Of a stretch of DNA of 64,000 bases, positions 10,995 to 15,338 are shown piece by piece. The stretch's first letter is position 1; every line of letters begins with the position of its first letter. Position numbers and translations under genes: made by a program. The DNA lies in the NCBI RefSeq assembly GCF_965641715.1, contig NZ_OZ282453.1; one strand, written 5' to 3'. This DNA is from Escherichia coli (GTDB lineage: Bacteria; Pseudomonadota; Gammaproteobacteria; Enterobacterales; Enterobacteriaceae). The notes under the pieces were generated by a model. That model was not told where the DNA came from. It saw nothing but the letters and a program-made list of their open reading frames with translations, and made no database searches.

Positions 10995-11741
10995 TTACTT
11001 CGCAATTCCTGGCTGGACGACATTCGGACGCCAGCTCTCCCAGTTAAAATTCACCCATCGCCCGCCGTTCATGGTCATGCGATCCATAATCCGCTCGCCG
11101 AGCAATGTTTTCATGGCCTCATAGTTCAGGTTTGTCAGCATTCCCACGCTACGCATCGACGCTGTCCGTCGATCAATAATCTGGTGCAGTACCACCTGCT
11201 CGTTTTTCGTCTCGCGCTGAATGCCAATTTCATCAAGAACCAGCAGATCCACTTCGCACAGTTCCCGCAAAAATTTTTCGCCTGACTGCCCGTCGTCATA
11301 GCTGGCGTGGAGGGCACTCATAACATCAGCCACGGTAACCACAATCACTGTCTGACCGTCTTTCAGCAGGCGATTCCCGATAGCTGCTGCTAAGTGGTTC
11401 TTCCCGGTACCAGGTTTTCCGCTAAACGCGAAATTTGTGCATCCGGTAACCAGTTCGTCAGCGATAGATTTCGCCAGACTCAACGCGTATCGCTGGCCGT
11501 CGTTCTGCACCTGGTAATTCGCAAACGAGCATTTACGGTGCAACGGCTGGATGCCTGAGCGATTCAGAATTTTTTCCACCCGCAACTGGCGATTCAGGCG
11601 GTTGATCTCCTCGCTACGTTTCTGGCCTTCAGCAAGTTGCCACTCGCGCCACTCCGCTACCGTTCTGAATGGGGCAGTTACATGTGGTGGGGTCAGTCTG
11701 CGGATACGCTCCAGAACGCCTCCTGTCGCAATATTTTTCAT
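10995..11741 (-). CDS. DnaC-like replicative helicase loader (YdaV-like, AAA+)
   Basis: Walker A GKPGTGKNHLAAAIG and Walker B LLVLDEIG; 248 aa; downstream of O-like gene. Confidence 0.85.
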   Translation of the reverse strand: MKNIATGGVLERIRRLTPPHVTAPFRTVAEWREWQLAEGQKRSEEINRLNRQLRVEKILNRSGIQPLHRKCSFANYQVQNDGQRYALSLAKSIADELVTGCTNFAFSGKPGTGKNHLAAAIGNRLLKDGQTVIVVTVADVMSALHASYDDGQSGEKFLRELCEVDLLVLDEIGIQRETKNEQVVLHQIIDRRTASMRSVGMLTNLNYEAMKTLLGERIMDRMTMNGGRWVNFNWESWRPNVVQPGIAK

Positions 11742-11747
11742 GGTCTG

Positions 11748-12536
11748 TTACCCCCTGAAGCCTGGCGGGATCGCACTATCCGGTAACGAAACGGTGTTAA
11801 CCTGTCGGAGTAACGTCTCAGGTCGAACACCTTTCGGCGCGAACAAGCCCTGGTATTCATTAGCAATGCTGTGTCGAATCACCTGCTCAGGTGAAAAACC
11901 CTGCTGGCGGAATTTTTCCAGCTCTCGTATCGCCCCGTTAGCGCCCTGCTCCGTTCGAATCGGTTTTCGCAATGCCTGCCTGAACTGAACCCACTCATGC
12001 CAGAGTGTTTCCGGCAACCAGTCAGGCAGCTCGATAGCCTCCGGCTCGAATTTTTTAGACGCTCGTTTTTGGCGAAGGGGATTTAGGGGGAGATCAGTAT
12101 TTATATCTTCCTCTTCCTCTTCCTCTGGTAACGCTTTTTGATCCGTTTGTGTAACGCTGCCAGCGTTACCTTTTCGTTTCAGTTCGCGTATTTTTGTAAC
12201 TCGCTCGTTTGTAACCGCCCGTTTTTTAGAGCTTTTTCCGTTATGACGTTCAAAGTTAGGTAGAGAAAGCCCACCGTCATTTTCGACCAGCCATCCAACC
12301 TGAATTAACGCATCAGCAAAACCAGCCATAAAAGTGATGCGATCTATTGCACTTTTTGTAACGCCGCGAGCGTTACAATCTGCATTACCGTCTATCATTT
12401 GTTGATCCGCCCATGCCCAGAAGCGAATAACCTTCCCTAATGCGGCATCTGGATCAATATTCAGAATCTCAGCAAGCCTGAATATTTCCGGCTTATCCGG
12501 CGTAATAACTTCGAGCTTTATCCAGTTTGAAGCCAT
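11748..12536 (-). CDS. phage replication initiation protein (O-like / YdaU-like)
   Basis: 262 aa; acidic linker EEEEEED; position between cII-like gene and DnaC-like loader; palindromic repeats inside and upstream. Confidence 0.7.
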   Translation of the reverse strand: MASNWIKLEVITPDKPEIFRLAEILNIDPDAALGKVIRFWAWADQQMIDGNADCNARGVTKSAIDRITFMAGFADALIQVGWLVENDGGLSLPNFERHNGKSSKKRAVTNERVTKIRELKRKGNAGSVTQTDQKALPEEEEEEDINTDLPLNPLRQKRASKKFEPEAIELPDWLPETLWHEWVQFRQALRKPIRTEQGANGAIRELEKFRQQGFSPEQVIRHSIANEYQGLFAPKGVRPETLLRQVNTVSLPDSAIPPGFRG

Positions 12537-14243: not shown

Positions 14244-14399
14244 ATGCAAAAAATCGACCTCGGCAACAACGAATCTCTGGTATGTGGCGTGTTTCCCAAT
14301 CAGGACGGCACATTCACAGCCATGACGTATACCAAAAGCAAAACGTTTAAAACCGAAGCTGGCGCACGTCGCTGGTTGGCAATACATTCAGGTGAATAA
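14244..14399 (+). CDS. small protein (51 aa), YdaF-like
   Basis: Manual translation MQKIDLGNNESLVCGVFPNQDGTFTAMTYTKSKTFKTEAGARRWLAIHSGE; similar in size and position to Rac ydaF. Confidence 0.4.
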   Translation: MQKIDLGNNESLVCGVFPNQDGTFTAMTYTKSKTFKTEAGARRWLAIHSGE

Positions 14400-14400
14400 A

Positions 14401-14763
14401 ATGAACGAAACAGAATTAAAACACGTTATCGCTCTGCTTCTGGAGGATGCAAAGCGCCTCCAGCAGCTGGCCCCAAATGCAGGCACTGAAGAGCGAATTA
14501 TTATGGCTAATAAAAGTCTACATTCTGCATATGATACAAATACAAAGCAAACAGATAAAAATATTATTGTTTATGGGCACAGCGTTAACAGAGAATTTGC
14601 TTACTTTGTTCTGGAAAAATATCAACCTACATTTTGCCGGATAATAGAAGAACTAACATTAAAAGGCAAAGATAAAGAGTTTATTGAAAATGCTGTGGCA
14701 ACGGCAAGCGCAGCAGCCGTTGCCAGTATCAAATCAATGATTGCTCTAGCGATTAACCAATAA
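14401..14763 (+). CDS. hypothetical soluble protein (120 aa), immunity-region moron
   Basis: AT-rich ORF downstream of repressor on the same strand, the position occupied by rex/sieB-type accessory genes in lambda. Confidence 0.5.
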   Translation: MNETELKHVIALLLEDAKRLQQLAPNAGTEERIIMANKSLHSAYDTNTKQTDKNIIVYGHSVNREFAYFVLEKYQPTFCRIIEELTLKGKDKEFIENAVATASAAAVASIKSMIALAINQ

Positions 14764-14920
14764 ACCCAGGGGGGATATCACGCTGAGGTGGGTTAAGAAG
14801 CTCGGTAAACACCGCTCTCAGGCGTTGAACTTCTGAAATAAAATCGGCTTCACTGCAATCCCAGCCTTTGGGGTGCTTAAGTCGCAAATATTCAAAAACT
14901 AACGAATCAATTTCATTCAT
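14753..14920 (-). CDS. small ORF (55 aa) ending in IPPGFIG, same C-terminal motif as the O-like replication protein
   Basis: Start MNEIDSLV with GGAGA RBS; convergent with the 120-aa gene; C-terminus ELLNPPQRDIPPGFIG versus O-like ...DSAIPPGFRG. Confidence 0.3.
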   Translation of the reverse strand: MNEIDSLVFEYLRLKHPKGWDCSEADFISEVQRLRAVFTELLNPPQRDIPPGFIG

Positions 14921-15338
14921 ATTGGATAGCACAATTATTCTCCTTACTAGTTGTGTGAGAACTCCAGTATACCACCGAGCCTGAAGTGGTAAAAAGACAG
15001 GCGCACAACACGAAGGCGCATTTCCGGTATCCATAAAGAGTCGGTCTTGTCTGTTAAATTTAAATGGTGGGAGTGCGCCTCCGGTTGTAAATAACAACAC
15101 TGCTGTGTGTAGTCTTGGCGGCATCAGTTTTTTCTTGAAGTTCGGCTGATGTCCGCCCTTTTTAAAGTGAATTTTGGGATGTGGTGAATGCGGCTAAGCG
15201 CACGTGGCACAGTTAAAAGTCATGTTAGTCCTTATTGGTTTGTGTGGGAAAACCGACAGTAATTGTTAACTGGTTGCAGTCACCTGGAGGCACCAGGCAC
15301 CGCATCCACAAATTTCATTTGTAAAAATGGAGATAATT

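What the first reader, a model, noticed from the sequence alone, without database searches (positions are those of the whole stretch)
14753..14920. Small convergent ORF whose C-terminus (IPPGFIG) copies the C-terminus of the O-like replication protein (IPPGFRG)
Both C-termini were verified by codon-level reading. Short C-terminal tails of replication initiators often mediate partner recruitment. A 55-aa protein carrying the same tail could compete for that partner (replication interference or exclusion), or it could be a remnant of a second replication gene.
Basis: partly seen in the sequence, partly recalled or inferred. Interest (0 to 1): 0.45.

Follow-up and report, generated by a model that had tools for sequence, protein, structure and literature searches.

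The report
Orphan small prophage gene, DnaT-like tail
The small ORF is a real but rare prophage gene of unknown function whose last seven residues resemble the conserved DnaT-type tail of the phage replication initiator, but the resemblance is strong only in this allele and is probably coincidental rather than a copy or a gene remnant.

Summary
The ORF at 14753..14920(-) ends IPPGFIG and the initiator at 11748..12536(-) ends IPPGFRG, a 6/7 match with both at the C-terminus.

The initiator tail is the tail of host DnaT. The same peptide ends Rac YdaU and at least 7 different phage initiator C-terminal architectures, and it is conserved as protein despite synonymous change at every codon.

The small ORF is a real gene:
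- It is probably 59 aa, starting at GTG 14932 with an AAGGAG Shine-Dalgarno.
- It has its own promoter-like site.
- It sits in the slot that sieB occupies in Rac, convergent with the early-left operon.
- Relatives at about 55% identity occupy the same slot and show purifying selection.
- The predicted fold is a two-helix hairpin with a flexible tail.

It is neither a copy nor a remnant. The two tails differ at every third codon position, and nothing outside the tail aligns.

In diverged relatives the tail reads VPDGFVSTL, VPSGFVSTPKPSES or VPEGWITSLEE. It is not terminal there and does not track the local initiator tail. Codon-shuffled windows yield a 6/7 pair 20% of the time, and an unrelated small protein family ends EIPAGF.

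Tail mimicry is possible (about 0.2) but unsupported. The gene is rare, found in 8 of 5426 complete E. coli genomes.

The parts
14753..14932 (-). Predicted as a two-helix hairpin (residues 3-19 and 28-46) with a flexible tail (residues 47-59).
   Evidence: PGAP calls the 59-aa version; AF2 mean pLDDT 83, tail about 60; purifying selection against L125 and L128.
14756..14776 (-). Codons for the IPPGFIG tail. They contain a C6/G3 tract (CCCCCCTGGG) in which a frameshifted variant (P0002) was seen.
14940..14945 (-). Shine-Dalgarno AAGGAG, 7 nt before GTG 14932.
   Evidence: Read from the sequence; the same element is present in L125, L132-L136.
14966..14993 (-). Promoter-like site TTTACC-16-TGgTATACT (extended -10) that would drive the small ORF. 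The GGTGGTAT(A/G/C)CT core is conserved in diverged relatives.
   Evidence: consensus match only, not shown to be active.
14492..14940 (.). Mosaic cassette swapped relative to related prophages. It carries the C-terminal two-thirds of the + strand partner gene and the whole small ORF. In K-12 Rac the equivalent slot holds sieB.
   Evidence: blastn boundaries against L123 and against K-12 Rac (window 14380-14970 replaced).
14401..14763 (+). Convergent partner gene, 120 aa from ATG 14401 (123 aa from GTG 14392). Its 3' end overlaps the small ORF by 11 nt. It is co-conserved with the small ORF in L125 and L128.
   Evidence: dN/dS 0.13-0.18; PGAP annotates only a 40-codon fragment.
11748..12536 (-). 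Replication initiator, 262 aa. Residues 170-262 match the DnaT C-terminal domain, and the C-terminal 124 aa are 81% identical to Rac YdaU.
11751..11771 (-). Codons for the IPPGFRG tail. The last two codons (AGG GGG, 11751-11756) double as the Shine-Dalgarno for the DnaC-like gene.
   Evidence: the same overlap is documented for E. coli dnaT/dnaC in bioRxiv 10.1101/069385.
10995..11741 (-). DnaC-like helicase loader (YdaV type), with its start 6 nt after the initiator stop.
15104..15158 (+). DicF-like sRNA, equivalent to KilS of Rac, on the strand opposite the small ORF's upstream region and upstream of kilR.
   Evidence: Rfam RF00039, 41.1 bits (gathering score 48), E 4e-7; K-12 annotation of kilS at the homologous place.

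Best explanation
The small ORF is a genuine orphan accessory gene ('moron') of Rac-type prophages. It is neither a fragment nor a copy of the replication gene.

**Location and expression.** It sits in the slot that holds the superinfection-exclusion gene sieB in K-12 Rac. It would be transcribed from that slot's own promoter, against the early-left operon (ydaF, partner gene, KilS/DicF-like sRNA, kilR). I infer that it is made in the lysogen, and that early-left transcription after induction opposes it.

**Protein.** The product is a soluble two-helix hairpin carrying a flexible C-terminal peptide. The family-conserved core of that peptide is [IV]-P-x-G-[FW].

**The initiator tail.** It is a different thing: the invariant terminal peptide [IV]P[PAG]GF[RV]G-COOH of host DnaT and of many phage initiators.

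**The resemblance.** The 6/7 identity is peculiar to the E. coli/E. albertii allele. It arose by point changes and a new stop codon on an already similar four-residue core, and is most likely coincidence.

**Shown versus inferred.** Shown: gene reality, slot, cassette structure, identification of the DnaT tail, and absence of homology outside the tail. Inferred: lysogenic expression and an exclusion or host-modulating role through an unknown partner.
For: - **Real gene.** Relatives at 53-58% identity occupy the same slot. pS is 0.63-0.84 against pN of about 0.3, and indels fall in multiples of three.
- **Expression signals.** AAGGAG plus GTG, an extended -10 promoter-like site, and conservation of both.
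- **Slot identity.** The slot matches sieB of Rac, and homology to Rac breaks at the -10 box.
- **Cassette.** It spans 14492-14940.
- **Fold.** Helices at 3-19 and 28-46, with tail pLDDT about 60.
- **The initiator tail is the DnaT tail.** PDB 2ru8 and 9zbt_D match at E 1.5e-4 and NCBIfam DnaT at E 0.0035.
- **No copy.** All third codon positions differ. BLASTP finds no alignment. hhalign aligns 9 tail columns only, at 5% probability.
- **Relatives' tails diverge.** They are not terminal and do not track the local initiator tails.
- **The terminal stop is derived.** DNA homology runs through it: window ATT GGT TAA TCG CTA GAG against L128 ATT ACT TCG TTG GAA GAA.
- **Chance level.** 20% of shuffled windows give a 6/7 pair. 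An unrelated signal-peptide-like family ends EIPAGF or EIPAGY.
Against: - The core [IV]PxG[FW] is conserved in all five family tails. It follows a linker of variable length on a predicted flexible tail. That is what a functional docking peptide looks like, and it is the same core as in the initiator tail.
- Every carrier examined also encodes an initiator with a DnaT-type tail.
- All four differences of the E. coli allele from its relatives move it towards IPPGFRG-COOH: V to I, x to P, S/T to G, and a new stop.
- The slot is one used for exclusion genes.
- No function was demonstrated for the small protein. No family, structure or defence-system match was found.
Confidence: 0.6

Rival explanations
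1. Tail mimic. The small protein presents a DnaT/initiator-like C-terminal peptide and competes for that peptide's partner, most plausibly a host replication protein. This would interfere with replication of superinfecting phages that use such initiators. Convergent early-left transcription would shut the gene off when the resident prophage is induced.
For: - 6/7 identity with a terminal position.
- Conserved [IV]PxG[FW] core on a flexible tail in all relatives.
- sieB-slot position and convergent orientation.
- All carriers have DnaT-tailed initiators.
- The initiator tail is under strong peptide-level selection, and about half of its carriers lack their own DnaC-like loader, which points to a conserved host partner that could be competed for.
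- DnaT's last roughly 20 residues are flexible and implicated in oligomerisation (PMC5778457, PMC5314882).
Against: - Initiator tails always end [RV]G-COOH. Relatives of the small protein carry 2-8 extra residues and D, S or E at the x position.
- There is no co-variation with the local initiator tail.
- The upstream [VI]SxPD element of initiator tails is absent.
- The match is not significant post hoc, and similar tails occur in an unrelated family.
- Host DnaT carries the same tail, so an effective mimic made in lysogens should harm replication restart.
- The gene is rare (8 of 5426 genomes), and inactivated copies exist: an internal stop in L135 and the frameshifted P0002.
Confidence: 0.2
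2. Remnant of a second replication gene. The ORF is the decayed 3' end of an initiator gene left behind by recombination.
For: Only the shared tail, and a faint 'W....ADFI' resemblance to the start of the DnaT C-terminal domain that I noted by eye.
Against: - Third codon positions all differ.
- BLASTP finds nothing, and hhalign aligns only the tail.
- No dnaC-like sequence lies downstream.
- The gene has its own Shine-Dalgarno and promoter-like site and is under purifying selection as an independent 59-66 aa gene in diverged lineages.
- The eye-noted resemblance is not conserved in relatives, which read EF or KF at a different spacing.
Confidence: 0.02
3. The conserved element is the antisense promoter, not the protein. 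Transcription from the slot promoter against the early-left operon damps read-through into KilS/DicF-like RNA and kilR in the lysogen. The small ORF would then be interchangeable cargo with little function of its own.
For: - The promoter region is shared with prophages that carry sieB (K-12), an unrelated 97-aa ORF (L123) or the small ORF.
- The cargo is rare and sometimes inactivated.
- The 3' ends of the convergent genes overlap.
Against: The small ORF shows purifying selection at the protein level across saturated synonymous divergence, so the protein itself matters. This reading is compatible with the best explanation rather than exclusive of it.
Confidence: 0.1

Closest known systems
C-terminal tail of E. 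coli primosomal protein DnaT (…NTVSEPDSQIPPGFRG) and of Rac YdaU-type phage initiators
   Same: The window's initiator carries this tail, and its residues 170-262 align with DnaT 92-179. K-12 YdaU ends identically. The small ORF's last 7 residues match 6/7 and are likewise terminal, on a predicted flexible tail behind a helical domain. DnaT has a three-helix bundle followed by a flexible 20-residue tail (PMC5778457).
   Different: The small protein has no detectable homology to the DnaT C-terminal domain. It lacks the [VI]SxPD element and has I where initiators have R or V. Its relatives do not keep the terminal [RV]G. It is not in the replication module.
sieB of Rac, lambda and P22 (superinfection exclusion gene in the same slot)
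   Same: It occupies the same genomic slot and orientation, between kilR/KilS and ydaF. It is convergent with the early-left operon and overlaps it at the 3' end. The upstream region is shared up to the -10 box.
   Different: There is no sequence similarity. SieB is 162 aa with hydrophobic segments, whereas this protein is 59 aa and has no long hydrophobic stretch. No exclusion phenotype is known for it.
Small phage proteins that imitate a docking peptide of a host or phage protein to compete for its partner (general principle; recalled, not tested)
   Same: A folded mini-domain plus a flexible peptide resembling a conserved terminal motif.
   Different: No partner is known, even for the DnaT tail itself, and no binding or phenotype data exist.

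Membership tests
DnaT-type tail carriers (DnaT, YdaU and other phage initiators) | Extreme C-terminus reads [IV]P[PAG]GF[RV]G-COOH | tested here: inconclusive
   The window allele IPPGFIG is terminal, with I in place of R or V. Relatives end VPDGFVSTL, VPSGFVSTPKPSES, VPEGWITSLEE or VPEGWNTSMEE and fail this feature.
DnaT-type tail carriers (DnaT, YdaU and other phage initiators) | Upstream [VI]-[SP]-x-P-D-x-x element directly before the tail | tested here: not met
   Initiators read V(S/P)xPDxxIPPGFRG. The small ORF reads LNPPQRDIPPGFIG, where only the P at -4 coincides.
DnaT-type tail carriers (DnaT, YdaU and other phage initiators) | DnaT-like helical C-terminal domain, or another initiator domain, ahead of the tail | tested here: not met
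   BLASTP finds no alignment. hhalign of A1 against A2 aligns only 9 tail columns at 5% probability. Foldseek against PDB finds no DnaT hit.
DnaT-type tail carriers (DnaT, YdaU and other phage initiators) | Gene lies in the replication module (after ydaS/ydaT, often before a dnaC-like gene) | tested here: not met
   The small ORF lies on the other side of the repressor, in the sieB slot. No DnaC-like sequence lies downstream.
SieB superinfection exclusion proteins | Slot between kil and ydaF, antisense to the early-left operon | tested here: met
   Comparison with K-12 Rac.
SieB superinfection exclusion proteins | Sequence homology to SieB | tested here: not met
   BLASTP finds no alignment. 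Pfam, PHROG, NCBIfam and PADLOC give no hit.
SieB superinfection exclusion proteins | Aborts or excludes superinfecting phage | not testable with these tools
   Needs plating assays.
   No Pfam family at E<=0.01. The best PHROG is 2509, 'replication initiation protein' (E 4e-88). The match to phrog_678, 'O-like', is weaker (E 2e-25) and covers only residues 77-236. The C-terminal half is DnaT/YdaU-like. It is better called a YdaU-type initiator with a DnaT-like C-terminal domain.

The most novel reading that the evidence does not exclude
The IPPGFRG peptide shared by host DnaT and many unrelated phage initiators is a docking motif for one conserved host replication protein, which the literature I could read has not identified. 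On this reading the small sieB-slot protein is a prophage-encoded decoy of that motif. It would block replication of incoming phages with such initiators, or modulate DnaT-dependent restart, and would be switched off by convergent early transcription on induction.
Probability: 0.15. Interest if true: 0.75.

Novelty: new member of a known kind. Interest (0 to 1): 0.33.

Why it matters
As found, it adds one more uncharacterised small gene to the exchangeable sieB slot of Rac-type prophages, and it corrects two annotations: the start codon of the small ORF, and the partner gene that PGAP calls a fragment.

The more useful by-product concerns the initiator tail. It is the DnaT tail, kept unchanged on many otherwise unrelated phage initiators, about half of which have no loader gene of their own. 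That points to an unidentified host partner for a peptide whose role in DnaT is still unclear. No paper in the searchable library contains the string IPPGFRG.

If the small protein did bind that partner, it would be both a natural probe for it and a new kind of replication-directed exclusion. The present evidence does not favour that.

Tried and rejected
- **Family and structure searches on the small ORF.** Pfam, PHROGs, NCBIfam and PADLOC gave no hit. PDB searches by sequence and by profile gave nothing meaningful. Foldseek of the AF2 model against PDB gave no hit at E<=0.001.
- **Partner and small protein as a complex.** I fused them with a GS linker and used a 3-row paired alignment. The model was poor (pLDDT 50, pTM 0.29) and is uninformative.
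- **Wider searches for relatives.**
  - tblastn against 50,697 GenBank phage records found no match.
  - A scan of 100,044 species-representative genomes found no relative.
  - The word-indexed protein search found only 1-5 clusters.
- **'W....ADFI' resemblance to the start of the DnaT C-terminal domain.** Rejected, because it is not conserved in relatives and hhalign does not find it.
- **Gene conversion from the initiator 3' end.** Rejected on codon usage.
- **Shine-Dalgarno overlap as the sole reason for tail conservation.** Rejected. Initiators with CGC GGT and no adjacent downstream start keep the peptide.
- **Literature on the DnaT tail.** The two Szymanski et al. 2013 papers are not held. 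The 2026 preprimosome paper does not discuss residues 154-179 in its text.
- **First statistics script.** It timed out and was rerun with numpy.

Full report
**1. The observation**

The region is the immunity and replication part of a Rac-type lambdoid prophage of E. coli. The best public match is strain PEC41 at 99.3%. Translation of 14753..14920(-) gives a 55-aa product ending RDIPPGFIG*. The 262-aa initiator 11748..12536(-) ends DSAIPPGFRG*.

The gene is probably 4 codons longer. GTG at 14932 is preceded at 7 nt by AAGGAG (14940-14945), and PGAP calls this 59-aa form in other genomes, as WP_122986998.1 and WP_001502430.1. The 123-aa extension to ATG 15124 has no support.

At the DNA level the two tails differ at every third codon position, so neither is a recent copy of the other.

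As a post-hoc, all-against-all find, the match is not significant. Of 1195 stop-to-stop ORFs it is the only pair at 6/7 or better, but codon-shuffled windows average 0.27 such pairs, and 20% of them contain at least one.

**2. What the initiator tail is**

The tail is not a lambda-O feature. NCBIfam's only hit for the initiator is the last 19 residues of DnaT. Against the PDB, residues 170-262 align with the DnaT C-terminal domain (2ru8 and 9zbt_D, E 1.5e-4 to 5e-4). DnaT itself ends NTVSEPDSQIPPGFRG.

The C-terminal 124 residues are 81% identical to K-12 Rac YdaU, which ends identically, while the N-terminal halves are unrelated. The gene order, initiator then DnaC-like loader, mirrors dnaT-dnaC. 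The AGG GGG codons of the final Arg-Gly are the loader's Shine-Dalgarno, as documented for dnaT/dnaC (bioRxiv 10.1101/069385).

I scanned viral contigs for ATHCCNCCNGGNTTYNNNGGNTAA.
- Apart from the small-ORF copies among them (L053, L066), every locus carries IPPGFRG* at the end of an initiator.
- These initiators fall into at least 7 different C-terminal architectures.
- Synonymous variation occurs at every codon, and Arg is encoded AGG, AGA, CGC or CGA. The peptide, not merely the Shine-Dalgarno, is under selection.
- Further variants seen later are VPPGFRG, IPAGFRG and IPGGFVG, always at the very end.
- About half of these initiators have no DnaC-like gene downstream. The conserved partner is therefore more likely a host protein than the phage loader.

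In the literature I could read:
- DnaT's last roughly 20 residues are flexible.
- Removing the last 18 residues changes the trimer to a dimer.
- No DnaT-DnaC contact has been documented.
- The 2026 preprimosome structures do not discuss the tail.

Sources: PMC5778457, PMC5314882, PMC4132743 and PMC13377028. The string IPPGFRG occurs in no paper of the library.

**3. What the small ORF is**

It has no match in Pfam, PHROGs, NCBIfam, PADLOC or the PDB.

It is rare:
- 8 of 5426 complete E. coli genomes, all at least 98% identical;
- one E. albertii cluster;
- no GenBank phage record;
- no species-representative genome.

An exhaustive HMMER search and follow-ups found diverged relatives at 53-58% identity. 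Every one lies in the same place, between kil/ydaE and the repressor. Each is convergent with, and overlaps the 3' end of, a homologue of the + strand gene 14401..14763.

Between lineages, synonymous sites are saturated (pS 0.63-0.84) while pN is about 0.3. The partner gene gives dN/dS of 0.13-0.18. Both are therefore real genes, although PGAP annotates the partner as a 40-codon fragment.

A promoter-like site with an extended -10 lies at 14993..14966 on the minus strand. It and the Shine-Dalgarno are conserved in the relatives.

Comparison with a related prophage shows that 14492-14940 is a swapped cassette. L123 carries an unrelated, unannotated 97-aa ORF there, behind the same promoter and Shine-Dalgarno. 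In K-12 Rac the same slot holds sieB, and homology breaks at the -10 box.

AlphaFold2 predicts helices at 3-19 and 28-46 with pLDDT above 90, followed by an irregular tail at 47-59 with pLDDT about 60.

**4. Is the tail a copy, a remnant or a mimic?**

*Remnant: rejected.* There is no DNA similarity. BLASTP finds nothing. Profile-profile comparison aligns only 9 tail columns at 5% probability. No loader-like sequence lies downstream. The gene is independently expressed and under selection.

*Copy: rejected.* The codons differ from every initiator allele seen.

*Family-level picture.* The small-protein tails read IPPGFIG*, VPDGFVSTL*, VPSGFVSTPKPSES*, VPEGWITSLEE* and VPEGWNTSMEE*. What the family conserves is [IV]PxG[FW], placed after a linker of variable length. 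This core does not sit at the terminus in the relatives.

The initiators in those same prophages end IPPGFRG, VPPGFRG, IPGGFVG and IPAGFRG. There is no co-variation with the small-protein tails.

The DNA alignment shows that homology continues through and beyond the window's stop codon (window ...ATT GGT TAA TCG CTA GAG; L128 ...ATT ACT TCG TTG GAA GAA). The terminal position of the motif in the E. coli allele is therefore a derived truncation.

*Base rate.* Among 5252 unique ORF products from 1.46 Mb of related prophage DNA, three unrelated tails carry [IV]PxG[FW] in the last 12 residues. The looser pattern [ILVM]PxG[FWY] adds a fourth. Two of the four belong to one real, signal-peptide-like small protein family that conserves EIPAGF*/EIPAGY*. 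A loose similarity of this kind is therefore not rare.

*What keeps mimicry alive.*
- The core is conserved, and it sits on a flexible tail.
- The slot is one used for exclusion genes.
- All carriers have DnaT-tailed initiators.
- All four changes specific to the E. coli allele move it towards IPPGFRG-COOH.

*What counts against mimicry.*
- Initiator tails are invariably terminal [RV]G.
- The host's own DnaT uses the same tail.
- The gene is rare and sometimes inactivated: L135 has an internal stop, and P0002 is frameshifted in the CCCCCCTGGG tract.

**5. Verdict**

The most likely reading (about 0.6) is as follows. The small ORF is an orphan moron in the sieB slot, expressed from the slot promoter against the early-left operon. 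It acts through an unknown partner by way of its hairpin and its conserved C-terminal peptide. Its resemblance to the DnaT-type tail is coincidental.

Tail mimicry and competition gets about 0.2. A reading in which the antisense promoter is what matters and the ORF is cargo gets about 0.1. The remnant reading gets about 0.02.

The kind of element, an exchangeable small prophage gene, is known, and this family is new and uncharacterised. The side finding that the DnaT tail is shared by many phage initiators is the more interesting lead.

Noticed in passing
window 11751-11771 (-); loci L003-L122, L125, L128, L136, L139; L140 5120-5977: The initiator tail IPPGFRG is the C-terminal tail of host DnaT and of Rac YdaU. 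It ends at least 7 otherwise different phage initiator C-terminal architectures, with synonymous variation at all codons. Variants are VPPGFRG, IPAGFRG and IPGGFVG. About half of these initiators have no DnaC-like loader gene downstream, which suggests a host partner. The string is absent from the searchable literature.
   Followed up: partly
window 15104-15158 (+): A DicF-like sRNA (Rfam RF00039, 41.1 bits, below the gathering score of 48, E 4e-7, full-length model). It lies at the position homologous to the annotated KilS sRNA of K-12 Rac, just upstream of kilR. The layout ydaF, ydfC-like gene, sRNA, division inhibitor parallels what I recall of the Qin dicB operon.
   Followed up: partly
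window 14401-14763 (+): PGAP annotates this ORF as a 40-codon 'incomplete' pseudogene fragment. It is conserved over its full length (119-132 aa) in L125 and L128 with dN/dS of 0.13-0.18. Its N-terminal roughly 33 codons belong to a widespread family (phrog_30817, 12693, 2982). Its C-terminal two-thirds are part of the swapped cassette, together with the small ORF.
   Followed up: partly
window 14761 (+ strand T): One base serves both overlapping genes. It is the T of the partner gene's TAA stop and the complement of the first base of the small ORF's Ile58 codon (ATT). Relatives with GTT (Val) at this codon have a partner gene that reads on for 13 or more codons. The V-to-I change that brings the tail closer to IPPGFRG therefore also truncates the partner protein.
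   Followed up: partly
L123 about 3282-3575 (-): In related E. coli prophages the same slot, promoter and Shine-Dalgarno carry an unannotated ORF of about 97 aa (MPTYLARVELYNAEPEDYEGLHKYM...). It has no Pfam or PADLOC match.
   Followed up: partly
L020, L098 (81-aa ORF); L128-L131 (63-aa ORF): A small, signal-peptide-like prophage protein family ends in a conserved EIPAGF* or EIPAGY*. I used it here only as a base-rate control for tail similarity.
   Followed up: no
window 11748-12536 (-) against L140 5120-5977: The initiator is modular. Only the C-terminal 124 aa (DnaT-like domain plus tail) are shared with K-12 YdaU, at 81% identity. The N-terminal halves are unrelated, consistent with swapped origin-binding domains.
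   Followed up: partly
L135 about 6001-6180; protein P0002: Inactivated copies of the small ORF exist. One IMG/VR prophage has an internal stop codon. One short Logan contig has a 2-nt frameshift in the CCCCCCTGGG tract that encodes the tail, which might be an assembly error.
   Followed up: no
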